In this document: positions 10,655 through 26,208 of the stretch, piece by piece | How the letters are laid out: each line of letters starts with the position of its first letter | How positions within the stretch are numbered: the first letter of the stretch is position 1 | Origin: Cyanidioschyzon merolae | Lineage: Eukaryota | Direction: 5' to 3' (one strand) | Assembly (NCBI GenBank): GCA_000091205.1 | Contig: AP006501.2 | Length of the DNA stretch: 64,000 bases | Notes under the pieces: generated by a model | The model's database searches: none | The model's input: only the letters and a program-made list of their open reading frames with translations | Told to the model about the DNA's origin: nothing | Translations under genes and position numbers: made by a program

Positions 10655-13600
10655 CTACGAGAGTAGATGCCGATCCGCCATAAGCCGGACGTCAGCGGAG
10701 AGGTCCGGTGTCGACTCACTCGATGACGAAGCAAAAGTGTTTGCATCTCCAGTGTCCAGTGCAACATGCCCCTCGCTGGGAAACGTTGCCAATCTCACTG
10801 GACCAGAGGATACGAAAGAAGCGCTCTGCTCCCGTTCAGCAGTACGTGGCGCCTCCGACGCTACCCGAGCCGTCTCTGCGTTTGTCTCCACAGACGTGAT
10901 GGAGTCTTCGGCTGGAAACCGTGATAGCGGTCGTGAGCGCAATGAATCCTCGAAAAGTGGATCCGAAACACCTCCGGGACCCACACCAAACGCTGCTACC
11001 AAGTCATGAATCCGAGGATCCGCCGGATCAAACCATACCAAGGTAAACTGCTCCGCGGACGCACTCGCCTGCTTTGCACGTGAGCTGAGCTTGCGCTCAC
11101 CACTGTATAGATCCAATGGTGATGCCAGACGTTTGGGCACTCGAATAGAGGCCTGTCCGAGCCGTCCCATGGATAAACTTCTCGAATTCGCATCGGACAA
11201 CAACGATGCTTCCCCAGTGGTACCCGTTCTCGCTGCATTCGTCTCTGGTGCTACCGACCGCGGCAGCGCAGGTGCTACATCCAGTCGGATTAATGCCGGT
11301 GCATCCACTCGCCGTCGCAGCAACGTCCCAGAAGACGCACCCTCGGACTCGGCAACAGTGATCAGGTTTGGGTCTGGCGGGTGCCAACGAAGACCTCCCG
11401 AGGACACCGTCTGGGCTGCTGCCGGATTCGCAGCAGCCGTGGAGTGCAACAAGGACCAGAGGGCTTCATTTTCGGCACGTTGTTCATCGTAGAGGCCAGC
11501 TTCCCCACGCTCCTGAGCTTTGGTGTCAAAGAACAACGGCGTATCGGAAGGCGTGACTACGAGCACTCGACAGCGCACCGGCAGCGTCTCACAGGGCGCA
11601 TGAAGCTCACTCTGGTACTGTCCCAGACAACCATAGCGTTTGCAGAGCGGACGAGCGTGTTGCAGTTGTCGGGCTCCCTCGCCGTCGCAAGTCTGGAGGT
11701 AGACGGTTCCCTGGAGAAGGATGACGACAGCGGAGCGAAGGCGTCGTGCAATACACTGACCATGCAACGGCCCGGAGAGCGTCCCTGGGAGTAAGCGCGG
11801 CATTGCCCACACAACGAGCGTAGCTGTTCGCAACGGCAACAACATGGCGTCTCGACGCTTTTCGTAGTCGAGCGCCTCGGGTGGAAACAGCATTGTCTCG
11901 GTTGCTACTGTGCCTGGGTTCTCGTACATTGCAAAAGACGCATCTGGGAGGCGACTGCTTGTATCGCGCGTCTCGACGTGCGCTCGTGTGCCAGGACGCG
12001 TCACTTGAGCGCTCTCTGGTGCAGCGTTATCCGCTCCGAGGGTATCGGTACGAGCAGCGGCGAGTCCGTTGCTCTCTGGGGGCGTCTCTGCGTCATCGGC
12101 AGGCGACTGCACCGACGTCGACGACCGCTCTGGTTGGCGCTCCGTACTGGGTCGATCCCGTCGCTCCAGTTCCATGAAGCGCATACGCGTTTCCGTGAGG
12201 TACTCTTCCACGTTGGGCACGAGGTTGCGAGCACACTCGCTAGCAGCCATGCGTACGGCGAGTCGCATCCAGTCGTCCCGACTGCTCATGAGATTCCTGA
12301 AATTCGATGCTGGAATGAAGAAGACATGGGCCAGCTGGGAGACAACCACCAGCTCCAACGCCGACGTATACCTATACAACGAACCCGCCATGCCATAGCT
12401 CTGTCCGGTTACACTGTTGCTCAGGGTACGCACTTCGTGGGCGTCCTCTCGGGGGAATCCAGAGGCCGGCGCAGAAGCTTCCAAGTCTGGTGGTATGTGT
12501 TTGTGCTCGTGGTTGAGCGCTCCCGATGACGGTGCTGCGTCTCTCAAGCCGTGTGGAAAGGCACCAGCTTCCGCGGAGGCAGCGTGCCAGACGACTTCCT
12601 CTGCGTCCGCTGCTATCGTTCCATCGTCAGCAAAGTCGTCATCGTCATCGTCGACGACGTTGCTATTGCTGGTGTAGCGATCGTCCCGCTCTCGACGACC
12701 AGCTATTCCGAATACGTCGCTGATGAAGGCTCGCAGACGTGCCTCGGCAGCGCGTCGACGCGACGGCAGCGTGGCGGAAGGGACTGCTTCTTCGCCGGGG
12801 TATGGAGGCTCGACCATATCCCGAGGCGTTGCAGCGGTTTCTTCTGGCTGACGCCGTTGCCACCATCGCCATCGTCGCCAAAGTGTCGACTTGCGCTCAC
12901 GCTCTTGTCCAAGATGACTCGGCAGTGTCAAGGGCGCCTCGGTGGACCGCTCAGAACTAGCAGGGGCAACGACACCCGCCAGTGGCGCTGCGGACCCAGT
13001 CTCTGCTGTTTCCACTGCTTGTGGCCAGACTGAGGTGGTTGTTGGCTTGCGACGAAGCGGTGGAAACTCCTCCTCACTCAGAAGGTTCGCAATCATCGCT
13101 GACTGCCGTTGGATGCGATCCACGGGTGTCCGTTGCACCGCAGGGTAACTGCTTCGCAGTCCATTGTGGCGCCCTAAAGTGCCGTGTCGCGCCTGGTGGT
13201 CCACTGCCTGCATGTCTTGTCGCTGCAGCAGTAACTGCTCGTCCAGGTCGTCGAGATCATCACCAGCGAACTCGACATGCTGGGTCCGTACCTCGATCGC
13301 TCCTCGAATGACGTAAAAGACACCCACCACGAGGGTATCCATCCGTTGCACGACTTCGCCATGTGCGAACGCTCGTATTTGGCCTGCAGCTCGCCAGGCA
13401 GCGAGCAACTGTTCCAGTGCGTGTTCGAGAGCGACCCTCGAGCGATACTCCACTTCCAACCAAGATGCAAGACTGTTGCGCAAGCAGTCACCGATGGTTG
13501 GCAAAGGAAAACGTATGCTCACGCGCTGCAGTGCCTCGCGACGCATATCCAGCTGGTCCAACAGTGCCTTGGACTCGGCTTCGGTAAGCGTTCCAGTCGC

Positions 13601-16600
13601 ATACAGCTCCTCGATGAGGCGAGCTTGTCGACTCAGCAACACGTTCGCGGCATGCAGCGAGTCGCTCGCGCGTACCGTCTCCGGTGACAGCACCCGCGAC
13701 GAATGCAAGTAGCTCTCGCAACGGGCAACTTCCGCTTCCAGTTCAATAGCGACTTGCAGGTCTGCAATGAGCGTCAGGGAACCGTGTGGATCCGCGGATA
13801 CCCAATCAGTGCTGTGGACCATAACCACTGCCGCGGTATCCGCAGCGATGGTGGCTGCTCCCGGCGGGCTGCGCTCAGCCTTCTCGAGTGCCCAGCGTTC
13901 AGCTTGCTGGGCATGCCGAGAATGCAGTGCATGAACCAGCGCTACGGTCAAGCCTGATACAATGTCATAACCGATAAAAAGCCGGCGATAGATAAGCCAT
14001 CGGGCAAAGCGATGAAGAAAGCGGAAACGCCCACAGATCCCTACGATAAACTGTTCGAGACGGGAGAGGCCCCAACCGCCGGCCTGCGTGTGACTGAAGA
14101 CCCGAATCTCGTCGGTGTTCGTGGGATTGCTCACCTCGTCCATGGAACGATCAATAGCGGCATTCAAGAGCCGATAAGGTGTCATGGACATGGAACCAAT
14201 TAGAAACTGTTTCTGGACAGCAGCGCGCATCGCTAGGAGTGCTCTGCGACGTGACTCGTTCAGCTGGTGCAGAAACACAGCAGTTGCAGGAGGCCTGCGG
14301 TAACGGCGCGAGTGCTGTTGTTGTTGTCGTCGTCGTCGTTGGAGGATGCTGGAGCGCTCAACAGCGCTGCGTTCAGGTCCGATGTTCGTCGTCGCTGTTG
14401 TCCAGCGTACGCTTCTGGGACGGGCGCCCGCAGCAGCTGCAGTCATCCGCCGAGATCGCCCAGTTCGAGGCTGCTTTCGATCAAGTCGCAACCACCAAGG
14501 TCGTTGAGGAAGCCAACGGTTTCGCGCTTTGGCTACCTGGTGCTGCCGTTCGAGCTGAAGGCTCCGGCTGAGGCGTTGCATCTCGCGAGAATGGCGCTCC
14601 CGCAACGCCTGTGAGCCCGACATTCGATACTCCACAGAGGCACGCGGTACCGCTAGGGAAACTCGCGGTGGTCGAGCCACAACCAGTTGTGGCAGTGATG
14701 ACGAGCGCGGCAAACTCCCTTGGAGGCGCGCACTGACCCCGGGCATGGTGCCGTCACTAGTCCTCCAGGCTGCTGATGTTGCAGTAGCAGCAGCAGCAGC
14801 AGTAGTGGCGGTGGCGGTGGCGAGGATGGTGTTTCCTGCACTATTGCCCGAGTTGTTTCCAAAAGCGCTGTTCATCGTGTTCCCTGCAGCGTTACCAAAG
14901 CTGCTTCCAAAAGTGCTACCCATGGTACTCCTTGCAGTGCTCCCGGGTGCTGGCATCGTGACGAGATTGCCAGTACTTTTCGGATTTGTCGAGGTGTCAC
15001 TTGTACCCGGTGTGATACTGTTGCTCGGGTTGCTGTTGGTATCCATTAGTTCGGGCCCTGCTGCTGATGCTGTCCAGTGTGCTTCATCTGGTTTTTGGGG
15101 AGGCAAACGCTCCTCCATGTCGGAACTGGACGAGACGCCCATCACTTTGTTCGTGTCGCTGGCGATCGATATGGAGTCGGGGTGCTCACTCATGAGCACC
15201 GGTGTGCGAGTCGCCTTGCTCACGAGCGCCCGCACCTGACCCACCCGCAGCAGCAACCTGGATAGCTCTGCGGGCAGAATCGCCACTTGCCCCACAAAGA
15301 CCCAATCCGCAAACGTAAAGCGACTCGTGCGCTGCATGTCGAGCAGGATATCCAGCGCCTTTGCATGTAACCGCCGTACTTGGGCGCGAAACGTTCGCAC
15401 CTGTGCAGCGGAACGATTCAAAAGACCCAACCAACCGGCAACCGTTTTAATGGTTGGTGCCTGAACCATCAGCGTCATCAGTACAATGGTAGCCGTCCAG
15501 AGTTGAACTCGTGCATTCACGTAGGTTCCGCCCTGGATATTAGGTTCATGGAAGACAATCTGGGCTGCAATGAGCGAAATAGCACCGCGGAGACCGACGT
15601 GAACAATCAAGAGCGCTTCCCGCCACGTGAGTCCGTAGCGACTGCGTCGTAACACCGGATAGAGCACCACCACTGCGATCAGGCGACTGAGGTAGAGCAC
15701 TGGGTAGAGCACGAGGCCGTACGCAATGGTCTTGCCGTCGATACCGTGACGACCCCAGAATACGATCAAATTCACAACTGCAATGAATCCTGCGTATGTA
15801 AAAGCGATCGCATTGATGATCATCGAAATGACGGACCAGAAAGCGAGCAACGAATCCTGGAACTCAGGTGTCAACGAAGCAAAGCGATCCGCTCGAAGCA
15901 CCAGTCCGAAAGAGGCCACAGCGACAATGCCAGAGACGCCACAAGGACTCTCGCCGACATAGAAGACCAGGTACGAGAGCACAAATGTTGAGCCAATTTC
16001 GATTGCCGCATCCTTCCAGACTCGACGGAGGAAGACAAGTGTAGGGAGCGCGAAGGCAATTCCCAGTGCGAGACCTCCACCAGCGAGTCGCAGCAACTGC
16101 ACAAAGATGGCTCCAATCGACTGAGACGCATTCGGCTGCAGCCGCGTCAAAAACAGCACAAAGAGCGTGAACCCAGAGCCGTCATTAAACAAGGATTCGC
16201 CCTGGATCATCACCTGCAATGGTGTTCGAATGCCGCTTCCTTCGAGCGCCATGTTTACAGCCAGCACGTCAGTTGGCGAGATGAGCGCTCCGAACATCCA
16301 GCCAGCGTTGAGGCTCCACGGCGAGTCAGTCAATACATACGTGGTAAAGAAGGCGAGCAGGGCGGCGTCAATCACGACGAGAATCATGCTGAGGGCGAAG
16401 ATTTGCAATAAGAGGTTGCTGACGGTCCACCAGTCGATGAAGAGGGCGCTCTCGAGAATCAGCGGTGGTAACAGCACATAGAACAACACCTCGGGGTTGC
16501 GCACGTCGACCCAGTAGTTGAGCGAGGCAGACAACTGGGCCAAGTTCAAATAGCAGCCAGCAACGCCAAAGATGCCACCTGCGATGACCAGAGGAAAAGT

Positions 16601-16849
16601 ATACGGCACGGGTAAACGGTAGTGATCCAGCACGCTCTTGAAAGCGTATGCCAAGAGCACGGCTAGGATCGGAAACAATAGGATCATAAACGTTGACGGG
16701 GTCCATTCGGTGAACCCGTGACATATTGCAAAGATTTCCTCACCTACAGGGTCTGTTTCTGCTGCGGAGGCCGCCAGGTTTGTTCGAACGAGGGTAGCGG
16801 GCCCACGCAGCAGGTCGCTTTCGCTCGGGCACCAAGCACTCGTGTTCAT
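10655..16849 (-). CDS. Giant (2064 aa) SLC9C-type cation/proton antiporter. Order: N-terminal Na+/H+ exchanger TM domain, disordered linker, voltage-sensor-like S4 helix, cyclic-nucleotide-binding domain, then a ~850-aa low-complexity tail
   Basis: N-terminus (aa ~50-470, nt ~15440-16700) has NHE/CPA1 hallmarks: ISPTDVLAV, VMIQGESLFNDGSGFTLFVLF, multiple TM helices. Aa ~935-960 read GRFRFLHRFARWLIYRRLF, with Arg at every third position as in an S4 helix. Aa ~1085-1200 (nt ~13250-13600) read LLDQLDMRREALQRV ... FAHGEVVQRMDTLVVGVFYVIRGAIEV, which resembles a CNBD beta-roll. Single 6.2-kb ORF. Confidence 0.8.
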   Translation of the reverse strand: MNTSAWCPSESDLLRGPATLVRTNLAASAAETDPVGEEIFAICHGFTEWTPSTFMILLFPILAVLLAYAFKSVLDHYRLPVPYTFPLVIAGGIFGVAGCYLNLAQLSASLNYWVDVRNPEVLFYVLLPPLILESALFIDWWTVSNLLLQIFALSMILVVIDAALLAFFTTYVLTDSPWSLNAGWMFGALISPTDVLAVNMALEGSGIRTPLQVMIQGESLFNDGSGFTLFVLFLTRLQPNASQSIGAIFVQLLRLAGGGLALGIAFALPTLVFLRRVWKDAAIEIGSTFVLSYLVFYVGESPCGVSGIVAVASFGLVLRADRFASLTPEFQDSLLAFWSVISMIINAIAFTYAGFIAVVNLIVFWGRHGIDGKTIAYGLVLYPVLYLSRLIAVVVLYPVLRRSRYGLTWREALLIVHVGLRGAISLIAAQIVFHEPNIQGGTYVNARVQLWTATIVLMTLMVQAPTIKTVAGWLGLLNRSAAQVRTFRAQVRRLHAKALDILLDMQRTSRFTFADWVFVGQVAILPAELSRLLLRVGQVRALVSKATRTPVLMSEHPDSISIASDTNKVMGVSSSSDMEERLPPQKPDEAHWTASAAGPELMDTNSNPSNSITPGTSDTSTNPKSTGNLVTMPAPGSTARSTMGSTFGSSFGNAAGNTMNSAFGNNSGNSAGNTILATATATTAAAAATATSAAWRTSDGTMPGVSARLQGSLPRSSSLPQLVVARPPRVSLAVPRASVEYRMSGSQALRERHSREMQRLSRSLQLERQHQVAKARNRWLPQRPWWLRLDRKQPRTGRSRRMTAAAAGARPRSVRWTTATTNIGPERSAVERSSILQRRRRQQQQHSRRYRRPPATAVFLHQLNESRRRALLAMRAAVQKQFLIGSMSMTPYRLLNAAIDRSMDEVSNPTNTDEIRVFSHTQAGGWGLSRLEQFIVGICGRFRFLHRFARWLIYRRLFIGYDIVSGLTVALVHALHSRHAQQAERWALEKAERSPPGAATIAADTAAVVMVHSTDWVSADPHGSLTLIADLQVAIELEAEVARCESYLHSSRVLSPETVRASDSLHAANVLLSRQARLIEELYATGTLTEAESKALLDQLDMRREALQRVSIRFPLPTIGDCLRNSLASWLEVEYRSRVALEHALEQLLAAWRAAGQIRAFAHGEVVQRMDTLVVGVFYVIRGAIEVRTQHVEFAGDDLDDLDEQLLLQRQDMQAVDHQARHGTLGRHNGLRSSYPAVQRTPVDRIQRQSAMIANLLSEEEFPPLRRKPTTTSVWPQAVETAETGSAAPLAGVVAPASSERSTEAPLTLPSHLGQERERKSTLWRRWRWWQRRQPEETAATPRDMVEPPYPGEEAVPSATLPSRRRAAEARLRAFISDVFGIAGRRERDDRYTSNSNVVDDDDDDFADDGTIAADAEEVVWHAASAEAGAFPHGLRDAAPSSGALNHEHKHIPPDLEASAPASGFPREDAHEVRTLSNSVTGQSYGMAGSLYRYTSALELVVVSQLAHVFFIPASNFRNLMSSRDDWMRLAVRMAASECARNLVPNVEEYLTETRMRFMELERRDRPSTERQPERSSTSVQSPADDAETPPESNGLAAARTDTLGADNAAPESAQVTRPGTRAHVETRDTSSRLPDASFAMYENPGTVATETMLFPPEALDYEKRRDAMLLPLRTATLVVWAMPRLLPGTLSGPLHGQCIARRLRSAVVILLQGTVYLQTCDGEGARQLQHARPLCKRYGCLGQYQSELHAPCETLPVRCRVLVVTPSDTPLFFDTKAQERGEAGLYDEQRAENEALWSLLHSTAAANPAAAQTVSSGGLRWHPPDPNLITVAESEGASSGTLLRRRVDAPALIRLDVAPALPRSVAPETNAARTGTTGEASLLSDANSRSLSMGRLGQASIRVPKRLASPLDLYSGERKLSSRAKQASASAEQFTLVWFDPADPRIHDLVAAFGVGPGGVSDPLFEDSLRSRPLSRFPAEDSITSVETNAETARVASEAPRTAEREQSASFVSSGPVRLATFPSEGHVALDTGDANTFASSSSESTPDLSADVRLMADRHLLS

Positions 16850-17149
16850 GGAGAGCGACCTGAGCGACGCCCCGGGCGTGTGTTACAGCTTACCTGATTT
16901 TCGTTCAAAATTCAAACAACAAAGGTGAGCATCCGTTGTTCATGGCTGTGCGCTTGAAGCCAATGTGCCAACCAGGAGGATGAGGAGCAGCAGCAGCAGC
17001 AGCGCAGCAGCAGCGCGATACGGACGAACGAACGGCACCGGTGGCGTTCAACGGCATTCATGCTGGGCTACCTTTCGAAGCTCTGCTGAGGAACGACGAG
17101 TTACTTGGCGAGAGAGTTGCAATTCGTGGACGGAATTAGTTAGGAAAAA

Positions 17150-17560
17150 GTGAAAAGGAAGATTTGGATAGCCCAATAGAGCGAGTGCGGGAAGAGTGTA
17201 CGGAATAAGCTGAAAGTAGCAAGCTCTGGAGAACCGGGAGAGTGCCTTGAAAGCTCTGGATAGTCGCATAGACGAAGCGCACGTTGGAGTGTTAAGGTCT
17301 TTTACAAGTAAAAAGCTCAGAAAACTAGAGACACTACGTTGAAGGCTCTGGATCGTCCAACTGAATTGATGCAAGCCTGGGGGTATTAGCGTAATCTGAA
17401 AGCTCAGAAGATTCGAGACACGACGTTGAAGGCTCTGGATCGTCCAACTGAATTGATGCAAGCCTAGGGGTATAAGCGTAATCTGAAAGGGGAAAGCTCA
17501 GAAAATTCAAAATACTGCGCTGGCGGGTTTGGATAGCCCAGATGAAGCGATGAAGGTCGA
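17150..17560. repeat. Tandem minisatellite, ~97-bp unit, two near-perfect copies plus degenerate flanking copies. Lies 300-700 bp upstream of the NHE paralogue 1 start codon
   Basis: Unit aagctcagaaaattcgagacacgacgttgaaggctctggatcgtccaactgaattgatgcaagcctgggggtattagcgtaatctgaaag repeated at ~17311-17408 and ~17409-17507. Earlier copies diverged. Six-frame ORF 17048..17461 shows the repeated peptide QITLIPPGLHQFSWTIQSLQR. Confidence 0.75.
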
Positions 17561-19137
17561 ATCCGTTGTCCGATCTGAAACGAGCACTTCGCTGCTCGCC
17601 TGCACCTTGACTATCGCTTTTTTCCGACATTTTCTGATGTACAGCCTCGACAATTGAAGTATAGCAATAAGGGCTTCGGGATGATGCATATGAAGTTCCA
17701 GGATTCTCGTTTGCCTTTGCGGAGTCGCAGCTGTGACGCTGCCTCTGGAATTCACGAAACCATGGACGTCAAGATCATTCGCGACACCCTAGAAAACGGG
17801 TTCGTTCTGTACCCGATATCAGGATCCAGTTCAAAAGCGCAAGCCTCATCGCTGCTCTCTTACTTTGATGTAGCATGCTCAAATCATGGATTCTTCAATG
17901 TTTGGGATCCTTCTGTTGCAAGGCAACTTGGGGGCGCACCAATTCGCGCCCCAGCGTGGACAAGGCGAAAAACTCGACATCTTCTCTCTTGAGGACGTCT
18001 TCACCAGCTCATACCGATTGTGCACTGTACTTGCCTCGTCAAATACTCGACACCGTTCGAAAGCCAAACCGCCATTTCTATGTGGACATTGATGAAACCG
18101 GACTCGACAGCTGCGTGATGCCTCGCTCGGAATGTGGTACCCGAGTCTCCCGTCTTCTCTCTAGGGATGGAGAACCGTCCAGGACTCGGAGTTGGGTTGT
18201 CGGAGCGATCGCTTCGACCGAGGCGGGCTCCACCGCGTGGTACAACGGCAGCGCTCAGGGGCAGGAACTTCTCGGTATCTACTCCAGCAGGATGTTTCCT
18301 TCCTGTATGTGTTCCATCATGGACAATACCGCATACCAAATTCCTTGTATCCAATGGAAAATCGTGCCCTTGTGCGTAGAGCGGACAAAGCATTCGCCAG
18401 AGGGATCACCCATAAGCAGCACGTGATCCTAGGATACGGTGCCAGGCGTGGAGAAGCGGGTACGGTATCGAGGCGCGTCCGCGCTACGCTTCATGGACGT
18501 GTACAGAGCGGCGAGGCAAGGCGTTCACGCGCCACATGGCGGCTCCTGGAGATAGGATGTATGGCGGACATACGAGAGCACCTGACCGCAGTCCAGTGTC
18601 ACCGCTGAGAAGCGCACACTGAGGCTGTTACCATGGACGCTGAAAATAGCGTGCGAGGCATAGCTCGCAACTACCGCATGTGCATCAATTGCGTCGATCA
18701 TAGCAAGAAGCTGCGAAATGTGCATTTGAACGCTGCCACCAACATCCCCGCACTGCTCACGAATATGCTGGAGCGCAAGGCGCGATCGGAGGACTTCAAG
18801 CCGTACATGAATGACAGGGAAAGCAAGCAGAGGCAGGAAAACCCGCAACAGCTGGTTTTGATCACATCTTCAGCATGGGAAACATCGAGATTGAACGCCC
18901 GAGTTTGCCAACGGGACGATTTCAGATGGAGTCTAACAGAGGCGTCAAACAATGTCGCGGCCATGCCCTTGTTCAAAAAAATGTCGTTCCACAAGCGTCT
19001 GATGGACAAGCACGGCGAAGCGACGCTTTCATAGAAAGCAAATGTAATGCTTCTTCCTGGACAGAGACGCGTCATCAAGGAGGCTCTCGTTCCATATCTG
19101 GATGCGAAAACGTCTTCAAGGATCTCGTTGTCTACTC

Positions 19138-22100
19138 CTAGAACATGTGTTCCCGTGCCATGAGCTCTGCATCCCGCTCTAGCTGACGCCGATCCGGTGT
19201 ATTCGATTCAAGTACTTCAGAAGCTGGATCCGTGACCGCAGGGATGCTCCCTGCATCTTGTTCTGCAGAGAGGAAGGACGACGAGCCTTCCAGGACGGTG
19301 TCCGATACGCTGCGATGTGTCTCCCGCAGGTCTCTGGTCTGCCAAGGCGGTGCTTGGCCCGTGCTCCCCCCGCGGTACACCACCGGAGTGCCAGTTGCAG
19401 ATTCCTCGAATAGCAGTTGCAGGCCTGTATCCTCAACAGGATTGGCGACCTCTTCACTGTAGTTCGCTAGGATATCGACCAGTTCGGATCGAGAACGTCG
19501 CGGTGGGCGAGTATGTCGGTGTCGCCAGAGCTGCTGCTCAAGTTCCGTTTCCGTTTCCGTTCGGTGTTTCTGCTCGAATTGACGCATCCAAGGGCCAGCA
19601 ATGGATCCAGCATGCCCTCTGGTCTGTTCCGAACGTTCCCGGTCAGCAGACTCGGACGGAAACGTTTCGGTTAGAGAGACCATTCCGGACGGCAGCGTCC
19701 AGCTGCGTAAAAGCCCAGGACGCGTGCCACTTTCGCCAGCCGCTTGTCCGATAAAGCGCTCACCACTGCTGCCATCTGAACAGGTAGGATGCAGCGCATC
19801 CGTCCCAGCGCACATGATATCAGCGGGAACAGTGTTTCCGGGCTGGTCTACTTCACTCGGTTTCGAGATACGCGAGGTGTCGCTCATGGGTGCCGTCGTC
19901 GTCGAAAGTCGCTGTGCTCCTCTCCCGCGCCGACTGCTGACCCGCTCACGAGCCGCAGCCAAACGTTGTAACCGTAATGCACTCTGTACAAGGCGCTTTC
20001 GCTCCTTTTGGAGAAGAGGCTGGTTCAAATCCATCCACAGGAAACAGGGAGAAGTGGCGGTTTTCGATACAGCCGAAGCAACTGCATCGTTTCTGTCTGA
20101 AGCGGCAGCAGCAAAGAGCGCAACATCCTCACAGGGGCGAGCGCAACTCGCAGCGAAATGGTCCAGGCGAAGTACTGCTGGTGCGGAGACTCGACCCGCC
20201 CAGGTTTGCCACTCAGAAAGCGGTGACGGAGCATCGCCGCTGAGACTGCTCCTGTTGCCACCGCTATCGGTGATTTTGCCAGTCCCTGTACTGCCGTTTC
20301 CGTCGCTGCTGGTGCTACCAGGTCGTAACCGCTGCTGCGGCAGGGTTGCGTCATTTGCCTGGTGTAACGCCACTGAAGCAACGGACGCTTTCTCGTGATT
20401 GCTCAGAAACTGCAAAAGTGAAGGAATCGCGGCACCACGCAAAACAAGAAGCTTCGCAGGGGGCATTCCATCCGGCAACAAGAGCCAACGTCTCGGTTTT
20501 GTGTCTACTCGACGCGACGCATCCGCGCTCCGTATACCGCCAGCAGGCTGGACATCTGCTTCCCCTGTTACGGCGCTTTCGTGTTCGCGCTCAGCAGCGG
20601 GAGACGCTGACCCGCGCTCAACACCAGTACCTGTTTGGGAACTCGCTGTCGGCATCAGTGGCGCTCGATATCGCTGGAGCCACGGCCCCGCAGGTGTATC
20701 TGAGCCAGTCTCAGGAACGAACGCATCCTGCAGGATCTGGGCACCGTAAGCACTGGTGGGACGAATCTCCAGCGTTCCCGTAAGGAGTATCAGAATAAGG
20801 GACGGGGTTGCAGGTTCCAGCAACGGCACGTTCACAGCGCAGATGCCCTCGTGCACATGATAGACGCGTTCGTAGAGGCCGTACCAAGCCAGTGCACCCG
20901 TTACGTATACCTGATAGCGCAGGTTTGCTCGATCATCAGTGGAGCGTGAAGCGTCCAGCCACCACGGTGCTGCCTGATCCGAACGCTGCAGATAATCATA
21001 CATCGTGAACGAGTCCTGACGTGGTGGAAGCAGAGGTCTTCGTGTTGGGCGCGCTGCGGCACTGTGCGAACCTGCTTCAGTGGATGCTCCGGTTTCTGGG
21101 CGCTCTCCAAGCACCAGCGGTTGACGATCTACCAACGTTGTCGGAGCGGGTGTTGTTGGTTCGGGTCTCGTGGGCGCCCTGGTATCCAGCGGTACGCCAG
21201 ATGCAGCCAATGGCGTCGTGGCTATTGCGGCATTACCGCCGGCGCTTTTCGAAGGTATCCCCGCAGCTGCCGTCGTCGTCATCGTGACAAGTGCGGCTGC
21301 TCGTTGTTCAGACTCGGTTAAGGCTGCATTCCGGAGTGACAGCTCTGGACAAGTAACCGACTCTGCCATGTGTTCAGAATGTGGCCGTTGCAGCGCATGA
21401 AGGCTGTTTCCGTTACCGTCTTCCGTAACTGCAATCTGGTAGAGTTCAGAGAAGAACGTCTCCAGGCCCGGGATAAGGGCATCCACGAGCTCCGCGGCGC
21501 CTAGTCGGAGCGCCTCTTGCCACCAACCTCGCTCACTGCTCACCAGTTGCTGAAACGCTTGACGAGGAATAAGAAGCACGTTGGCCACCGGACTGGCAAC
21601 CACGAGCTCGTAGGGGTACCGGTGCGCAAATAGGACGCCACCGACACCATGCACATTGCGCAGAGGATCATCGTGACGAAGGAGCGACACCACCTCGTAT
21701 TCTGGGAGAGGGAGCAGGCCCTCCGCAGCTGTGCACTGCGAAGGCGAGGTGGCAAGCGTCAGACGCTCTTGTTCGGGCGCTGCAGCCGACCAGGAAGACG
21801 CAACGAGCAGGGCACCAGGTGTCGCATCGAGCACAGCGGACTCGGTTTCGAGCGCTTCACCTTCCAGTGCATCTTCACCTTCATCATCATCCCATTCTAC
21901 GAGGTCCGTTCCAGGGCGCATCGCCGACGGCGGTGTGCCAGTCGCGCAACGTGCTGTGCTCGAACGCGACTGGTGTGCCCCAGTGTTGCGATGATCCCCA
22001 CAATGATTACGATTATTGCTGCTGATGTTGTTGTTGTTAGTCCAGGTTCGATTCGATCGCATGGCATCCGCCCGACGGCAGGCAGCGCCCTCGCGCTTGC

Positions 22101-25100
22101 CATCAGTGACACCCGAAGCATCTTTCCCATCTCCGCTGATCCAGTCATGCGGAGCAACGGTGAGCGCTTCACTGGACGTTCCTGGAACAGCATGTTCAGC
22201 ATCCCGGGAAGCAGGCTCAAACAAACGCGCGGGAAGCTGTTTTTGTTGGGCATCACGTTGCTCGCCATCTCCTTGAGATGACTGACGACGACGACCACGG
22301 AGACGCTCCCACCAGGGCCACCTCCTCCTCCACCAACGCTGCTTCTGATGATGTTGTTGTTGTTCCTGCTGCTGCTGCTGCTGCTGCTGCCACCACCGGC
22401 GAAGGCCACTAGTGGCCGGGGCACCGTCCGGCACTTGTCTCGCAGCGTCCGCTGCAGGTGCTTTTGCAACGAGCACACCAGTCGCCGAGTCCGTAGCGAG
22501 TTCACCAGTAAAGGTGGCTGCGGCAACCGCCAAGCGCTCCGACGTTGCCCGGAGCGCCTCTTCCGCCTGGTGTTGGTCTCTGCTGATGAGGCGAGCAATC
22601 GCCTGTGTCATTGGCATGTCGATCGCTGTACCGCTCGGGGAGAGCAAGCATGTCGTCGCTTCAGTGCATGTCGACTGCTGCTCTTCGTGGACATGACACG
22701 GCGCAGTGTCTCTGCATCGGGTGCATACCGGAGATACGGCAGGTAGCGCGCTTGTCGGCTGCGCTGCCTCCAGGTCCGGCTCGGAGAGCACCAGGTGAGG
22801 CGCTGGGCCCGGGTGCGCGCTGCGTCGCTGCTGTGAATGCCTCCTAGAGTGCGTCTCCGGTGCCTGGCGCTGCTGCGGAGGATACGATACCGCTGTGCGT
22901 GGTCGTCCAAAGCCAAGGGGAAGGCGTGCTCGCCCTGACGCTATATGCTGCGTACGGCTCCAGTACCAGCGGAGCTCTAGAACACCGTGTGCTACGAGAA
23001 TCACCGCATCTGGTAGCTGAAAACTCGCCTGGAGACGCTCGCCTAGCAGTAACGAGCGCACATGGCCAGCCTGGCGAAAAGCGACATAGAGGCGATACGC
23101 CTGCGCAGAGGCGGAGTTCAGACCACCATCCAGAAGCCTTTCGGTTATCGATGTTGACGTTGTTGCTGCTGTTGCTGCTGCTGCTGGAGCACTCGTTTGG
23201 ACGCTCGTCGCTCCCGCTGGTGCGAAGGATGCGCCTGTAGTGGTGGTGGTGGTGGTGGTGGTTTTCGGGGTGCCCCCTGCTGACGACGACGCTGTCGCTA
23301 GCACAGGTTTGGATCCTGGCGACTGCGTCTCGTGGAACATTGGTGCCGCGGGCTGGAACCAGCGCCGAATACCAGCCTCAATGCGCTTCTCAAACGACGG
23401 AGCCGGAAATCGCACAGAAACTCGCTGCAGAGCCTCTCGCCGCATATCAATCTGGTCCAAAAGACCTCGAAACTCGCGTTTGGTCAGGAGACCCTCCGCG
23501 TACATGATTTCCAGGAGACGCTCCTGTCGACTGAGCATTACTGCGGCTGCTCGCAACGACTCCACAGAGCGTACCGTTTCGAGGCTGAGGATTCGCATCG
23601 AACGAAGATGCTGCTCGCAGCGCTGTAGATCGTGCTCCAGCTCTTGCAAGACTTGCGCATTCGCATGCAGAATCATGGTGAGCAAAAGCACCGCTCGCGG
23701 ATGAGGTTCACTTTTCTCATGTCGAAGCAGGGAATGGAGTGCTCGCATGCATTCGGAATAACGGCTCCGCCAGGCTTGGGCGAGCGCTACCGCCAGTCCC
23801 GACAGCACGTCATAGCCAACAAACAGACGACGGTGAAGCAGTGCCAGAGCCAGTCGATCGAGAAAGCGCACCCTACCCAAGACGTGTATGGCGAGGCGCT
23901 CGTAGCGACGCAAGCCCCAGCCGGCTTTCTGACTGCCCTCACAGAGGCGCAGCGTACCGGTGTGCGGCGCCAGGCATACCTTATCGTTGACGTAGTCGGT
24001 TACTGAGTCGAGGAGGCGGTACGTGACACGACTAATCGACCCAATGAGGTGCTGTTTCTGCACGTTCGCACGCACAGCAAGCAGCGTGCGCCGGCGACTC
24101 TCCATGAGGAGGCGACTGAACGCCGGGGAGTCCCCGAGCTTGCGCTCGAGAGGGAAACGCGTTAGCCAGTGCGCTAGACTTGGAAGCGACTCTTCGGGAA
24201 GGGGCTCTGGCTCTGGAGTTCGGACTGCCCTTGCAGGATTTCCTGTATCCGGCACTGGTCCCGGAGGCAATGATGAGACGCGAGATGCCCCAGTTGCCGT
24301 CTTGTCGGGTGCAGGAGTGCCAGCAGCATCGGGCTGACGTAGACGCGCCTTCCAGATGGCTTCGGCATTCGACCACGGTACCGGAGCGCTGCTGCTTGTC
24401 GTACCGGAGTTCGCGTCATCTCCAGGATCCAGAGACGACGACTCGGGAGAACGGGACGCACAGTCTGGCTCACGCGGCCCAGTTGGTGGCGTGGCTTGTC
24501 CTGGGGGCGCCACTCCGTAGCCGGGCGCCTGCTCCCCGTTCAAGCTCGCTGGAGGATCGTTCCCGGCAGCGGCCTTCGTGTAGCGCGCTGCCAAGTGCCG
24601 AATACGGGCGCGCACCCGCCCTGCACTTAACAGCAGCTCATCGAGTTTGTAAGGTAGAATGGCAGCCTCTTCCACGAATCCCCAATTTGCGTGAACGAAG
24701 CGACTGTGCTTCTGCATCTCCCGCAGCGCCTCTTTGGCTTGCCGGTGAAGACGGCGTACCTGGAGTCGAAACAGTCGCACTTCAGCGGCACTCTGGCTGA
24801 GGAGGCCCAGCCAGGCAGCGACCTGCCTCACTGTCGTTCCCTGGAACAACAGAGTCAGGAGTACGATCATCGAGGTCCACAGCTGAACCCGAGCAGATAC
24901 CACTGTACTACCGCGAATGGAAGGCGTATGGAAGACAATCTGGGCGGCAATGAGAGAGATGGCTCCGCGTAGGCCACAGTGAACGATGAGGATGGCCTCT
25001 CGCCACGAGGCCCCGTAACGACCAGTGCGCAGAATAGGAAACAGCGCCACCACCGCCACAACACGACAGAGGTAAGTGACAGGATAGAGCGCTACTCCGT

Positions 25101-26208
25101 AGCCAATTGCCGCGGCGTTCACGCCACTCTTTCCCCAGAAAACAATGAGGTTGACCACGGAGATAAAGCCAGCGTACACAAATGCAATCGAATTGATGAT
25201 ATGCGATATCGCTTCCCAGAATGCATCCAGAGACTCTTGAAATGCCGGTGTGATCGAAGCGATTCGGTCAGCGGAGAACATCACGCCGAACACGGACACA
25301 GCCACAATGCCGCTGCAGCCGCAGGGCCCGTCTGCAACGTAGAACACCAGATACGCCATAACGAGTGTACTGCCGATCTCGATGGCAGCATCTCGCCAGA
25401 CGAGGCGAAGCAGCAGCAACGTCGGGATGCCCATCGCGATACCGATGAGGAAACCGCCACCTGCAAGACGGAAGAACTGCTCTACAAGGTAGCCAAAGGA
25501 GAGATTCGGATTCGGCATCAGACGAGAGAGGAAGACAATGAAGAGAGTGAATCCGGAACCGTCATTGAAAAGCGCCTCGCCCTGGATCATGACCTGGATA
25601 TGCTTCCGCACCGGCGTTTGGGAAAGCGTAAGCGCAACCGCAAGTGCATCCGTTGGCGAAATGAGCGCCCCAAAGAGCCAGCCAGCATCGAAGCTCCAAC
25701 CGGCTGTACCGAACACGTACGTGGTGAATGCCGCCACAATCGCCGCCGAAATGAAAACCAAGATAATGCTTAGCGCGAATTGATGGGGAATGGTATGTTT
25801 CACGACCCACCAGTCAAGATACATGGCGCTCTCGAAGAGAATCGGCGGGAACAGGATGTAGTACAGGATCGTCGGTTTGTCGACGCTTACCCATAGCCGC
25901 AGTGACTCTGACAATTCACCCAGAGGTAGGTAACAACCAGCGACCCCGAAAACACCGCCAAGAATGACAAGCGGAACGGTATACGGTAAGGTCAGTCGGT
26001 ATCGAATGAAAAGGCCGCGAATGATGTACGAGAAGAGCACTGCCAGGAGTGGAAACAGCAGTACCGTGAAAAGCGACGGTGTTCCGGTACGAAAGCCGCG
26101 GCAGGTATTGAATATGGCTGCATCCTCGCTGGTGCTATTCGCGGCGTGAATCACTTGTGTTTGAAGTGCGGTGAGCTTCGAAGCCAACCCCTCAAACGAC
26201 GTATGCAT
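19138..26208 (-). CDS. Giant (2356 aa) paralogue of the upstream SLC9C-type exchanger: NHE TM domain, S4-like helix, CNBD with a poly-Thr insertion, and a long low-complexity tail with poly-Q
   Basis: Collinear with ORF 10655..16849: ISPTDALAV, VMIQGEALFNDGSGFTLFIVF, GRVRFLDRLALALLHRRLF (S4-like), LLDQIDMRREALQRVSVRF, then LPDAVILVAHGVLEL after a T9 run. TM-region identity to paralogue 1 is roughly 70-75% by eye. Confidence 0.8.
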   Translation of the reverse strand: MHTSFEGLASKLTALQTQVIHAANSTSEDAAIFNTCRGFRTGTPSLFTVLLFPLLAVLFSYIIRGLFIRYRLTLPYTVPLVILGGVFGVAGCYLPLGELSESLRLWVSVDKPTILYYILFPPILFESAMYLDWWVVKHTIPHQFALSIILVFISAAIVAAFTTYVFGTAGWSFDAGWLFGALISPTDALAVALTLSQTPVRKHIQVMIQGEALFNDGSGFTLFIVFLSRLMPNPNLSFGYLVEQFFRLAGGGFLIGIAMGIPTLLLLRLVWRDAAIEIGSTLVMAYLVFYVADGPCGCSGIVAVSVFGVMFSADRIASITPAFQESLDAFWEAISHIINSIAFVYAGFISVVNLIVFWGKSGVNAAAIGYGVALYPVTYLCRVVAVVALFPILRTGRYGASWREAILIVHCGLRGAISLIAAQIVFHTPSIRGSTVVSARVQLWTSMIVLLTLLFQGTTVRQVAAWLGLLSQSAAEVRLFRLQVRRLHRQAKEALREMQKHSRFVHANWGFVEEAAILPYKLDELLLSAGRVRARIRHLAARYTKAAAGNDPPASLNGEQAPGYGVAPPGQATPPTGPREPDCASRSPESSSLDPGDDANSGTTSSSAPVPWSNAEAIWKARLRQPDAAGTPAPDKTATGASRVSSLPPGPVPDTGNPARAVRTPEPEPLPEESLPSLAHWLTRFPLERKLGDSPAFSRLLMESRRRTLLAVRANVQKQHLIGSISRVTYRLLDSVTDYVNDKVCLAPHTGTLRLCEGSQKAGWGLRRYERLAIHVLGRVRFLDRLALALLHRRLFVGYDVLSGLAVALAQAWRSRYSECMRALHSLLRHEKSEPHPRAVLLLTMILHANAQVLQELEHDLQRCEQHLRSMRILSLETVRSVESLRAAAVMLSRQERLLEIMYAEGLLTKREFRGLLDQIDMRREALQRVSVRFPAPSFEKRIEAGIRRWFQPAAPMFHETQSPGSKPVLATASSSAGGTPKTTTTTTTTTGASFAPAGATSVQTSAPAAAATAATTSTSITERLLDGGLNSASAQAYRLYVAFRQAGHVRSLLLGERLQASFQLPDAVILVAHGVLELRWYWSRTQHIASGRARLPLGFGRPRTAVSYPPQQRQAPETHSRRHSQQRRSAHPGPAPHLVLSEPDLEAAQPTSALPAVSPVCTRCRDTAPCHVHEEQQSTCTEATTCLLSPSGTAIDMPMTQAIARLISRDQHQAEEALRATSERLAVAAATFTGELATDSATGVLVAKAPAADAARQVPDGAPATSGLRRWWQQQQQQQQEQQQHHQKQRWWRRRWPWWERLRGRRRQSSQGDGEQRDAQQKQLPARLFEPASRDAEHAVPGTSSEALTVAPHDWISGDGKDASGVTDGKREGAACRRADAMRSNRTWTNNNNISSNNRNHCGDHRNTGAHQSRSSTARCATGTPPSAMRPGTDLVEWDDDEGEDALEGEALETESAVLDATPGALLVASSWSAAAPEQERLTLATSPSQCTAAEGLLPLPEYEVVSLLRHDDPLRNVHGVGGVLFAHRYPYELVVASPVANVLLIPRQAFQQLVSSERGWWQEALRLGAAELVDALIPGLETFFSELYQIAVTEDGNGNSLHALQRPHSEHMAESVTCPELSLRNAALTESEQRAAALVTMTTTAAAGIPSKSAGGNAAIATTPLAASGVPLDTRAPTRPEPTTPAPTTLVDRQPLVLGERPETGASTEAGSHSAAARPTRRPLLPPRQDSFTMYDYLQRSDQAAPWWLDASRSTDDRANLRYQVYVTGALAWYGLYERVYHVHEGICAVNVPLLEPATPSLILILLTGTLEIRPTSAYGAQILQDAFVPETGSDTPAGPWLQRYRAPLMPTASSQTGTGVERGSASPAAEREHESAVTGEADVQPAGGIRSADASRRVDTKPRRWLLLPDGMPPAKLLVLRGAAIPSLLQFLSNHEKASVASVALHQANDATLPQQRLRPGSTSSDGNGSTGTGKITDSGGNRSSLSGDAPSPLSEWQTWAGRVSAPAVLRLDHFAASCARPCEDVALFAAAASDRNDAVASAVSKTATSPCFLWMDLNQPLLQKERKRLVQSALRLQRLAAARERVSSRRGRGAQRLSTTTAPMSDTSRISKPSEVDQPGNTVPADIMCAGTDALHPTCSDGSSGERFIGQAAGESGTRPGLLRSWTLPSGMVSLTETFPSESADRERSEQTRGHAGSIAGPWMRQFEQKHRTETETELEQQLWRHRHTRPPRRSRSELVDILANYSEEVANPVEDTGLQLLFEESATGTPVVYRGGSTGQAPPWQTRDLRETHRSVSDTVLEGSSSFLSAEQDAGSIPAVTDPASEVLESNTPDRRQLERDAELMAREHMF

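What the first reader, a model, noticed from the sequence alone, without database searches (positions are those of the whole stretch)
10655..26208. Tandem pair of giant SLC9C-type (NHE + voltage-sensor-like + CNBD) exchanger paralogues with ~900-aa low-complexity tails
Two head-to-tail minus-strand ORFs of 2064 and 2356 aa share one architecture: a Na+/H+ exchanger TM domain, an S4-like helix with Arg at every third position (GRFRFLHRFARWLIYRRLF and GRVRFLDRLALALLHRRLF), and a cyclic-nucleotide-binding-like beta-roll (FAHGEVVQRMDTLVVGVFYVIRGAIEV). This combination is the hallmark of sperm-type SLC9C exchangers, which are gated by voltage and cAMP. Here it sits in a unicellular, intron-poor genome. 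The gene is duplicated in tandem, the paralogues have diverged (~70-75% identity in the TM core), and the proteins are more than doubled in length by disordered insertions and C-terminal tails. Paralogue 2 also carries a T9 insertion inside the CNBD. This could be a voltage- and cyclic-nucleotide-coupled pH-signalling module with lineage-specific elaborations
Basis: partly seen in the sequence, partly recalled or inferred. Interest (0 to 1): 0.8.

Follow-up and report, generated by a model that had tools for sequence, protein, structure and literature searches.

The report
Giant SOS1-type Na+/H+ exchanger pair

Summary
The two ORFs are real: 10655-16849(-), 2064 aa, and 19138-26208(-), 2356 aa. 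They lie head to tail. Both are intact in three independent assemblies, and the tandem pair is conserved in related Cyanidiales red algae.

Both start with a CPA1 Na+/H+ exchanger membrane domain whose closest solved relatives are sea-urchin SLC9C1 and plant SOS1.

The SLC9C reading fails on its defining feature.
- There is no voltage-sensor domain: no Pfam Ion_trans hit and no S1-S3 helices.
- Only 100-118 residues lie where true SLC9C relatives carry 228-320 residues with two or three membrane helices.
- The "S4-like" arginines are irregularly spaced.
- That helix aligns with the cytoplasmic stretch just after S4 of SLC9C1.

The cytosolic region is colinear in one piece with Arabidopsis SOS1 residues 528-913.

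Verdict: these are lineage-expanded SOS1-type exchangers, probably regulated through their tails rather than by voltage or cAMP. Interest is modest.

The parts
10655..16849 (-). Paralogue 1 (p1), 2064 aa, a complete SOS1-type Na+/H+ exchanger gene
   Evidence: ORF confirmed. Copies 99.5% identical and full-length occur in two independent metagenome contigs, L004 and L005. Orthologues P0002 to P0005 are colinear over the full length.
15230..16729 (-). p1 membrane transport domain (aa 41-540), CPA1 fold with SPTD (aa 191), FNDG 'ND' motif (aa 221) and GLRGA (aa 419)
   Evidence: Pfam PF00999 E=1.2e-39. PDB matches: SLC9C1 2e-54, SOS1 1e-46 to 1e-48. Motifs located. dN/dS is 0-0.04.
14288..15229 (-). 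p1 disordered linker (aa 541-854), rich in S/A/R/T/P, between the membrane domain and the helical domain
   Evidence: Not conserved between the paralogues. 23% low complexity. Absent from compact relatives such as P0010 to P0012.
13460..14287 (-). p1 helical cytoplasmic domain (aa 855-1130), equivalent to the SOS1 alpha-CTD and the SLC9C1 coupling helices
   Evidence: Irregular Arg spacing. It aligns to the post-S4 cytoplasmic segment and the FGYDV..GF motif of VSD-bearing relatives and SpSLC9C1.
13265..13459 (-). p1 CNBD-like domain, N-terminal half (aa 1131-1195: alphaA and the first beta strands)
   Evidence: AF2 strands at model residues 303-335, pLDDT about 90. Aligns with the canonical CNBD beta2-beta3 motif.
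12416..13264 (-). p1 283-aa insertion inside the beta-roll (aa 1196-1478), predicted disordered, with short conserved motifs (RQSAMIANLLSEE at aa 1248; RLRAFISDVF at aa 1371)
   Evidence: pLDDT below 50. Absent from compact relatives. 24% low complexity. dN/dS 0.25-0.40.
12170..12415 (-). p1 CNBD-like domain, C-terminal half (aa 1479-1560: remaining strands, degenerate phosphate-binding cassette YGMAGSLYRYTSALE, alphaB and alphaC)
10658..12169 (-). p1 C-terminal region (aa 1561-2064) with conserved blocks (LLPLRTATLVVWAMPRL, AVVILLQGTVYLQT, VRCRVLVVTPSDTPLFF, APALIRLDV, FTLVWFDP) that resemble a fragmented beta-CTD
   Evidence: Paralogue and orthologue alignment. Motif resemblance to the C-termini of compact relatives. 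The HMM test was inconclusive.
10658..10693 (-). p1 extreme C-terminal motif DVRLMADRHLLS
   Evidence: The pattern D[AV]xLM[AQ]xx[HES][LMF][LF] ends all eight homologues P0001, P0002 and P0004-P0009, which cover both paralogue groups; P0001 and P0009 are the 99.5% and 98.8% identical counterparts of the window's p1 and p2.
19138..26208 (-). Paralogue 2 (p2), 2356 aa, a complete SOS1-type Na+/H+ exchanger gene
   Evidence: ORF confirmed. Copies 98.8% identical occur in L004 and L005, differing only by in-frame indels. Orthologues are P0006 to P0008.
24607..26109 (-). p2 membrane transport domain (aa 34-534) with SPTD (aa 184), FNDG (aa 214) and GLRGA (aa 412)
   Evidence: Pfam PF00999 E=1.6e-39. 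Motifs located. dN/dS 0.12.
23359..24132 (-). p2 helical cytoplasmic domain (aa 693-950), including the Arg-rich helix GRVRFLDRLALALLHRRLF at 23821-23877
   Evidence: 45% identical to the p1 domain. Sub-profile mapping. Coordinates checked.
23236..23262 (-). p2 T9 run (aa 983-991) within a roughly 70-aa linker insertion upstream of the CNBD alphaA helix
22939..23118 (-). p2 CNBD-like domain, N-terminal half (aa 1031-1090)
   Evidence: Alignment A1. CN sub-profile hit on the p2-like protein P0009, 6e-27.
21673..22938 (-). p2 422-aa insertion inside the beta-roll (aa 1091-1512), including a polyQ run encoded by (CTG)8 at 22366-22390
   Evidence: Population dN/dS is near or above 1 (7 non-synonymous against 1 synonymous difference).
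21424..21672 (-). p2 CNBD-like domain, C-terminal half (aa 1513-1595), with degenerate PBC HGVGGVLFAHRYPYE
   Evidence: 36% identical to p1 over 69 aa of this half, p1 aa 1485-1553. PBC alignment.
19141..19173 (-). p2 extreme C-terminal motif DAELMAREHMF

Best explanation
The two genes are tandem paralogues of an SOS1-type (NhaP/SOS1, plant 'NHX7'-like) Na+/H+ exchanger in a Cyanidiales red alga (Cyanidioschyzon/Cyanidiococcus lineage).

Each protein has, in order:
- a 13-helix-type CPA1 transport domain with the ND ion-binding motif;
- a helical cytoplasmic domain (the SOS1 alpha-CTD, equivalent to the SLC9C1 coupling helices);
- a CNBD-like beta-roll that cannot hold a cyclic nucleotide in the canonical way;
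- further conserved beta-rich blocks;
- a long tail ending in a conserved motif.

There is no voltage sensor. The proteins are roughly twice the length of their Galdieria and Porphyridium relatives because disordered insertions were added in four kinds of place: between the membrane and helical domains, before the CNBD, inside the beta-roll, and between the C-terminal blocks.

Shown: the architecture, the absence of a VSD, the loss of the PBC residues, the age of the duplication, and that both genes are intact.

Inferred: they exchange Na+ (or Li+/K+) for H+ across a membrane, probably the plasma membrane. Like SOS1, they are probably held inactive by cytoplasmic-domain and tail interactions that phosphorylation or protein binding in the disordered segments relieves. 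The conserved C-terminal D-A/V-x-L-M motif is a candidate latch.
For: Membrane domain:
- Pfam PF00999 at 1e-39 in both proteins.
- Best PDB relatives are SLC9C1 and SOS1.
- The ND, TD and GLRGA motifs are present. The ND aspartate (D201) is essential in AtSOS1 (PMC10372031).

No VSD:
- No Ion_trans hit, with positive controls.
- No TM-grade segments after about aa 480, apart from one marginal segment.
- The gap between the post-TMD helix and the C-linker is 100-118 aa with 0-1 hydrophobic segments. VSD-bearing relatives have 228-320 aa with 2-3.

Colinearity with SOS1:
- A 25-sequence profile that includes both window proteins matches AtSOS1 528-913 in one piece (E=6e-61) and rice SOS1 507-895 (E=5e-59).
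- The same profile matches SpSLC9C1 in two pieces that flank a roughly 174-aa insertion.
- A profile built almost entirely from the Cyanidiales family (six Cyanidiales sequences plus the compact relative P0010) gives the same pattern more weakly.

Structure:
- The AF2 model has a confident helical domain and a re-joined beta-roll.
- Foldseek top hits are SLC9C1 (1.5e-9) and rice SOS1 (1.6e-9).

Phosphate-binding cassette:
- The Glu and Arg are replaced in all red-algal sequences but kept in many VSD-less relatives.
- AtSOS1 likewise has Y820 in place of the Arg and is judged unable to bind cNMP (PMC10372031).

Relatives and history:
- Nearest named relatives are Porphyridium 'Sodium/hydrogen exchanger 7' and Galdieria proteins.
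- The tandem pair is conserved in L001, L004 and L005.
- The NJ tree places the duplication after the split from Galdieria.
- Population dN/dS is 0.2-0.66 overall and 0-0.12 in the membrane domain. All indels are in frame.
Against: - No experimental data exist on transport, localisation or expression.
- The AF2 alignment was shallow (25 sequences) and included genuine CNBD proteins, so the fold prediction leans on relatives.
- The native proteins give no significant Pfam cNMP_binding hit. The spliced p2 gives none either.
- The beta-CTD assignment of the C-terminal blocks failed a direct HMM test.
- The plant autoinhibitory C-loop (GLMSW) and the DSPS phosphosite are absent, so SOS1-like autoinhibition is only an analogy.
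- Backbone support in the TMD tree is low (8-68%). The red-algal clade is therefore not shown to be closer to plant SOS1 than to SLC9C.
Confidence: 0.82

Rival explanations
1. One reading: these are SLC9C-type exchangers gated by membrane voltage through an S4-containing sensor and by cAMP/cGMP through a functional CNBD.
For: - The membrane domain's best PDB hit is sea-urchin SLC9C1.
- An Arg-rich helix and a CNBD-type fold are present.
- The helix is homologous to the segment that continues S4 in SLC9C1.
Against: - No Ion_trans hit, although the model detects the VSD in P0015 and Branchiostoma SLC9C1.
- There are no S1-S3 helices and only about 30 residues upstream of the helix in which to place them.
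- The Arg spacing is irregular.
- The 174- to 270-aa VSD segment of SLC9C1 has no counterpart.
- The PBC Glu and Arg are missing.
Confidence: 0.03
2. The CNBD-like domain still binds a small ligand, either a cyclic nucleotide in a non-canonical pose or another anionic metabolite. The exchanger would then be ligand-regulated, with the large beta-roll insertion acting as a lid.
For: - The beta-roll fold is conserved and under strong constraint. No non-synonymous changes were seen in the C-terminal half in any of the four pairwise comparisons, two genes against two other assemblies.
- Many VSD-less relatives keep a canonical PBC, so ligand control is ancestral in this architecture.
Against: - The Glu and Arg that hold the cyclic phosphate are absent in every red-algal member.
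- The equivalent SOS1 domain is judged unable to bind cNMP (PMC10372031).
- No ligand candidate emerges from the sequence.
Confidence: 0.1
3. One copy (p2) is drifting towards loss of function, and the long ORFs persist only because the duplication or the insertions are recent.
For: - p2 shows higher population dN/dS (0.47-0.66).
- Its beta-roll insertion has 7 non-synonymous changes against 1 synonymous.
- Spliced p2 gives no cNMP_binding hit.
Against: - The duplication is old. Both orthologue groups exist in Cyanidium, Cyanidiococcus and a further relative, with 92-93% bootstrap.
- The p2 membrane domain has dN/dS 0.12 and keeps all transport motifs.
- 2356 codons are stop-free in three assemblies, with only in-frame indels.
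- The C-terminal motif is conserved.
Confidence: 0.05

Closest known systems
Plant SOS1 / NHX7 (Arabidopsis Q9LKW9, PDB 7Y3E/8JD9; rice OsSOS1, PDB 8IWO/8J2M)
   Same: - CPA1 transport domain with the ND motif.
- A helical cytoplasmic domain that follows the membrane domain directly, with no VSD.
- A CNBD-like beta-roll that lacks the PBC Arg.
- A long regulatory tail.
- A one-piece profile match to AtSOS1 528-913.
   Different: - About twice as long.
- The beta-roll is interrupted by 283 or 422 disordered residues.
- There is a 158- to 314-aa linker between the TMD and the helical domain.
- The plant C-loop (GLMSW) and DSPS site are absent. Instead a Cyanidiales-specific terminal D[AV]xLM motif is present.
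- The TMD tree does not place the proteins specifically with the plant sequence.
Sperm-type SLC9C1 (sea urchin SpSLC9C1, PDB 8PCZ/8OTQ/8U6Z/8XPQ)
   Same: - Same CPA1 sub-branch (best PDB E-value).
- Homologous post-TMD helix, coupling helices, C-linker-like helices and CNBD fold.
- The window's Arg-rich helix plus GYD motif corresponds to the cytoplasmic continuation of S4 and the LSLGYDVGKGY motif.
   Different: - SLC9C1 has a four-helix VSD (Pfam Ion_trans; R1=R803) inserted between two segments that lie close together here, with only the Arg-rich helix region between them.
- SLC9C1 keeps the GE...PR(N/T)A phosphate-binding cassette and binds cAMP.
- The window proteins have neither feature.
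Compact red-algal homologues (Porphyridium purpureum 'Sodium/hydrogen exchanger 7' KAA8494805.1; Galdieria phlegrea and G. partita proteins; P0010)
   Same: - Same domain order.
- Same GWGL...Arg-helix motif.
- Same degenerate PBC.
- Sister position of Galdieria in the tree, 89% bootstrap.
   Different: They are 1150-1220 aa, single-copy in the data seen, and lack the large insertions and the terminal LM motif.

Membership tests
SLC9C (sperm-type, voltage- and cNMP-gated NHE) | CPA1 Na+/H+ exchanger membrane domain of the SOS1/SLC9C sub-branch | tested here: met
   PF00999 at 1e-39. PDB phmmer against SLC9C1 gives 2e-54.
SLC9C (sperm-type, voltage- and cNMP-gated NHE) | Four-helix voltage-sensor domain (S1-S4; Pfam Ion_trans) between the transport domain and the CNBD | tested here: not met
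   - No Ion_trans hit at E<=1. Positive controls P0015 (1e-8) and P0143 (1e-17).
- No S1-S3 hydrophobic helices.
- The spacer is 100-118 aa against 228-320 aa in VSD-bearing relatives.
- The SLC9C1 VSD segment is unmatched.
SLC9C (sperm-type, voltage- and cNMP-gated NHE) | S4 with basic residues at every third position | tested here: not met
   Spacings are 2,4,3,5,1 (p1) and 2,4,8,1 (p2), against 3,3,3,3,3,3 in P0015 and P0143. The helix aligns to the post-S4 cytoplasmic segment.
SLC9C (sperm-type, voltage- and cNMP-gated NHE) | CNBD with an intact phosphate-binding cassette (Gly-Glu ... Pro-Arg-Thr/Ser-Ala) | tested here: not met
   The fold is present, but the Glu and Arg are replaced: YGMAGSLYRYTSALE in p1 and HGVGGVLFAHRYPYE in p2.
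SOS1 / NhaP-SOS1 type (plant NHX7-like) | CPA1 transport domain with the ND ion-binding motif (D201 in AtSOS1) | tested here: met
   FNDG at p1 aa 221 and p2 aa 214. PDB matches to SOS1 at 1e-46 to 1e-48. The role of D201 is from PMC10372031.
SOS1 / NhaP-SOS1 type (plant NHX7-like) | Helical cytoplasmic domain (alpha-CTD) between the membrane domain and the CNBD-like domain, with no membrane insertion | tested here: met
SOS1 / NhaP-SOS1 type (plant NHX7-like) | CNBD-like domain (CNBLD) that lacks the conserved cNMP-contacting Arg | tested here: met
   PBC alignment. AtSOS1 has Y820 in place of the Arg (PMC10372031). Here the domain is additionally split by a 283- or 422-aa insertion.
SOS1 / NhaP-SOS1 type (plant NHX7-like) | Beta-sheet-rich C-terminal domain (beta-CTD) after the CNBLD | tested here: inconclusive
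   Conserved beta-like blocks resemble the C-termini of compact relatives. An HMM built from those relatives gave no significant hit.
SOS1 / NhaP-SOS1 type (plant NHX7-like) | C-terminal autoinhibitory tail with C-loop and C-helix, relieved by SOS2/CIPK24 phosphorylation (DSPS site) | tested here: not met
   No LMxW, GxLM or DSPS motifs in p1 or p2. Plant P0087 has GGLMSWP and IDSPS. A different conserved terminal motif exists. Whether it autoinhibits cannot be tested here.
SOS1 / NhaP-SOS1 type (plant NHX7-like) | Plasma-membrane Na+ extrusion activity and homodimer formation | not testable with these tools
   Needs yeast complementation, transport assays and localisation.

The most novel reading that the evidence does not exclude
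Two linked ideas remain open.

(1) The Cyanidiales proteins may have converted the SOS1 regulatory module into a much larger disorder-based switch.
- A folded CNBD-like beta-roll would tolerate a 283- to 422-aa loop carrying conserved short motifs.
- A lineage-specific terminal D[AV]xLM...H-phi-phi motif would serve as the autoinhibitory latch.
- This could give an extreme acidophile very tight control over a transporter that would otherwise admit protons down a steep gradient.

(2) The Arg-rich helix plus GYD motif is the homologue of the cytoplasmic stem of S4.
- The SLC9C voltage sensor therefore sits at one precise site in an otherwise SOS1-like scaffold.
- VSD-less and VSD-bearing forms coexist in the same protists (Triparma).
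- This would make gain or loss of the sensor a traceable evolutionary event.
Probability: 0.3. Interest if true: 0.45.

Novelty: new member of a known kind. Interest (0 to 1): 0.25.

Why it matters
It is not one.

What remains is useful in smaller ways.
- It is a clear case of how an Arg-rich amphipathic helix next to a CNBD can mimic an S4 signature.
- It maps where the SLC9C voltage sensor is inserted relative to SOS1-type proteins.
- It shows a CNBD fold that apparently tolerates a several-hundred-residue insertion inside the beta-roll.
- For Cyanidiales biology, the conserved tandem pair is a candidate for Na+/H+ homeostasis at very low external pH.

Tried and rejected
- My initial guess of a trypanosomatid genome, based on composition and long intron-less ORFs, was wrong. 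The homologues are Cyanidiales red algae.
- The central region of p1 alone gave no significant PDB match.
- AF2 with a 7-sequence alignment of the helical region was too poor to use: pLDDT 56.
- The search for homologous proteins with alignment A2 and with the p1 membrane domain returned nothing, not even the query itself. Named hits for a broad phylogeny were therefore limited to cluster look-ups.
- The first attempt at a bootstrap tree timed out. I redid it with a fast NJ implementation, so deep branches are weak.
- An HMM of the beta-CTD from compact relatives did not detect the C-terminal blocks of p1 or p2.
- A link between the terminal LM motif and the plant C-loop GLMSW rests on two residues only. 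I keep it as a hypothesis.
- Literature searches found no work on these Cyanidiales genes.
- I rejected artefactual gene fusion. Three independent assemblies and four species share the same continuous architecture from the N-terminus to the terminal motif.
Full report
**Observation**

The window holds two long minus-strand ORFs at the stated coordinates. They are 10655-16849 (2064 aa, p1) and 19138-26208 (2356 aa, p2), arranged head to tail and 2.3 kb apart.
- Both give a single significant Pfam hit, Na_H_Exchanger, at E about 1e-39 over roughly aa 60-470.
- Neither gives an Ion_trans or cNMP_binding hit, even at E<=1.
- The paralogues are 55% identical over the membrane core (not 70-75%), 45% over a roughly 275-aa helical middle region and 36% over a short later block.

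**Organism and conservation**

The homologues come from Cyanidiales red algae: Cyanidiococcus yangmingshanensis, Cyanidium caldarium and hot-spring metagenomes. The neighbouring genes are eukaryotic (ZIP transporter, UDP-glucose pyrophosphorylase, an INCENP/PHD protein).
- The tandem pair, in the same order and with the same upstream ZIP gene, occurs on a 286-kb contig of a related alga (L001).
- It also occurs on two independent metagenome contigs of nearly the same organism (L004 and L005).
- Against those two contigs p1 is 99.5% and p2 98.8% identical. All length differences are in frame.
- Population dN/dS is 0.20-0.26 for p1 and 0.47-0.66 for p2. It is 0-0.12 in the membrane domains and near neutral in the large p2 insertion. 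The counts are small.
- The ORFs are therefore real single genes, not fusions.
- A neighbour-joining tree of the membrane domain gives each paralogue its own orthologue group (92-93% bootstrap). It joins the two groups (100%) and places Galdieria as sister (89%).
- The duplication therefore followed the split from Galdieria and preceded the divergence of Cyanidium, Cyanidiococcus and the window's lineage. Deeper branches are weakly supported.

**No voltage sensor**

- Hydropathy finds no TM-grade segment after about aa 480, apart from one marginal stretch directly after the Arg-rich helix in p1.
- Only about 30 residues separate the preceding conserved helix from the Arg-rich helix, so S1-S3 cannot be accommodated.
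- The arginines are spaced 2,4,3,5,1 (p1) and 2,4,8,1 (p2). Genuine S4 helices in relatives show strict period 3.
- An exhaustive profile search with the helical region found 173 relatives.
- Mapping four sub-profiles onto them splits them into two classes.
  - In class A the post-TMD helix and the C-linker are 66-118 residues apart (136 and 176 in two outliers) with no hydrophobic segment. The window proteins and their orthologues, at 99-118 residues, belong here, with at most one marginal segment.
  - In class B they are 228-320 residues apart (one outlier at 469) with one to three hydrophobic helices, mostly two or three, and an obvious S4, for example SLRFVRLLRLVRLLRAGRLVKK.
- Class B includes Branchiostoma SLC9C1. 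Its members give Pfam Ion_trans hits (1e-8 and 1e-17), so the negative result for the window proteins is meaningful.
- The window's Arg-rich helix and the following LFIGYDIVSGL motif align with the post-S4 segment and the FGYDV..GF motif of class B proteins.
- A 25-sequence class-A profile that contains p1 and p2 matches SpSLC9C1 in two pieces.
  - In 8xq8 numbering the pieces are 546-618 and 792-1127. The second piece is 820-1155 in 8pcz.
  - This leaves about 174 unmatched residues exactly where the VSD lies.
  - The same profile matches Arabidopsis SOS1 528-913 and rice SOS1 507-895 in one continuous piece (E=6e-61 and 5e-59).
- A smaller profile (six Cyanidiales sequences plus the compact relative P0010) shows the same pattern at lower significance.
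- According to PMC10620091, R1 of SpSLC9C1 is R803 and S4 continues as a long soluble stem embedded among the coupling helices.

**The CNBD-like domain**

- Alignment with compact relatives shows that the beta-roll of p1 and p2 is interrupted after the first strands. The insertion is 283 aa in p1 (aa 1196-1478) and 422 aa in p2 (aa 1091-1512).
- With the 25-sequence alignment, AlphaFold2 models p1 aa 855-1560 as follows:
  - the helical domain at pLDDT 85-97;
  - both beta-roll halves at about 90;
  - the insertion below 50.
- Foldseek ranks SLC9C1 and rice SOS1 first, both at about 1.5e-9.
- With the insertion spliced out in silico, p1 gives a sub-threshold cNMP_binding hit (19.8 bits, cut-off 27.5). 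p2 gives none. A plant SOS1 scores 27.4.
- In the phosphate-binding cassette, many class-A relatives keep GE...PR[TS]A. Every red-algal sequence, including p1 (YGMAGSLYRYTSALE) and p2 (HGVGGVLFAHRYPYE), lacks both the Glu and the Arg.
- In AtSOS1 the same Arg is replaced by Y820 and the domain is judged unable to bind cyclic nucleotides (PMC10372031).
- The T9 run of p2 lies in a separate insertion of about 70 aa upstream of alphaA.

**The tails**

- After the CNBD-like domain, p1 has 504 residues and p2 has 761.
- They are not mainly low-complexity: 3% and 17% by a SEG-like measure.
- They contain blocks conserved between the paralogues. These resemble the beta-rich C-termini of Galdieria and Porphyridium homologues, spread apart by further insertions. 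An HMM test of this was inconclusive.
- All eight retrieved Cyanidiales homologues that reach the C-terminus, which cover both paralogue groups, end in D[AV]xLM[AQ]xx[HES][LMF][LF].
- The plant C-loop (GLMSW) and the DSPS phosphosite are absent.

**Mechanism**

Shown: an intact CPA1 transport core with the ND motif, an SOS1-type cytoplasmic scaffold, no VSD, and a degenerate nucleotide pocket.

Inferred:
- Electroneutral Na+(Li+/K+)/H+ exchange.
- Regulation through cytoplasmic-domain packing and tail interactions as in SOS1 (PMC10372031).
- The disordered insertions act as phosphorylation or binding platforms.
- The terminal LM motif is a possible latch.

For an organism that lives at very low external pH, tight autoinhibition of such an exchanger would make physiological sense. 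This is conjecture.

**Comparison and novelty**

- The proteins work like SOS1 and fit it in domain order. They fail the defining SLC9C tests (VSD, periodic S4, intact PBC).
- They differ from plant SOS1 in length, in the split beta-roll and in the tail motifs.
- Orthologues are already deposited as "Sodium hydrogen exchanger" or hypothetical proteins.
- Red algae already appear in published NhaP/SOS phylogenies (PMC7573149).
- This is a new, lineage-expanded member of a known kind, and interest is modest.

Noticed in passing
window 17312-17489: An 87-bp unit repeated twice in tandem (93% match) lies in the 2.3-kb spacer between the two exchanger genes. The equivalent spacer in the related contig L001 is only about 0.7 kb.
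   Followed up: no
window 22366-22390: A perfect (CTG)8 microsatellite encodes the polyQ run inside p2's beta-roll insertion. The p2 copies in L004 and L005 differ from the window by 4-6 residues in length (6-8 gapped alignment columns). Where those indels lie was not examined, so a link to this repeat is only a possibility.
   Followed up: partly
window 37635-44336 (-): A 2233-aa ORF with a PHD finger and a C-terminal INCENP_ARK-bind box lies in the most GC-rich part of the window (62-65% GC). It is an unusually large INCENP-like protein.
   Followed up: no
window 29080-30267 (+) and L001 346-1506: A ZIP metal transporter gene lies immediately upstream of p2, on the opposite strand, in both the window and the related genome. 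The neighbourhood of the tandem pair is therefore syntenic.
   Followed up: partly
p1 aa 1248-1260 (window about 13067-13105) and p2 aa 1198-1211: Short helical motifs inside the otherwise disordered beta-roll insertion are conserved across both paralogue groups (RQSAMIANLLSEE and MPMTQAIARLISRD). At least part of the insertion therefore predates the duplication and may be a binding site.
   Followed up: partly
relatives P0018/P0019 (Triparma), P0042 (Allacma fusca), P0143 (Branchiostoma): The stramenopile Triparma encodes both a VSD-less and a VSD-bearing exchanger of this branch. A springtail protein without a VSD groups with metazoan SLC9C1 in the TMD tree (78% bootstrap). The sensor may have been gained or lost more than once, or that gene model may be incomplete.
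   Followed up: partly
(tool behaviour): the search for homologous proteins returned no hits, not even the query's own cluster, for the helical-domain alignment and for the p1 membrane domain. The full-length query had found ten. Negative results from that word-indexed search should not be over-read.
   Followed up: no
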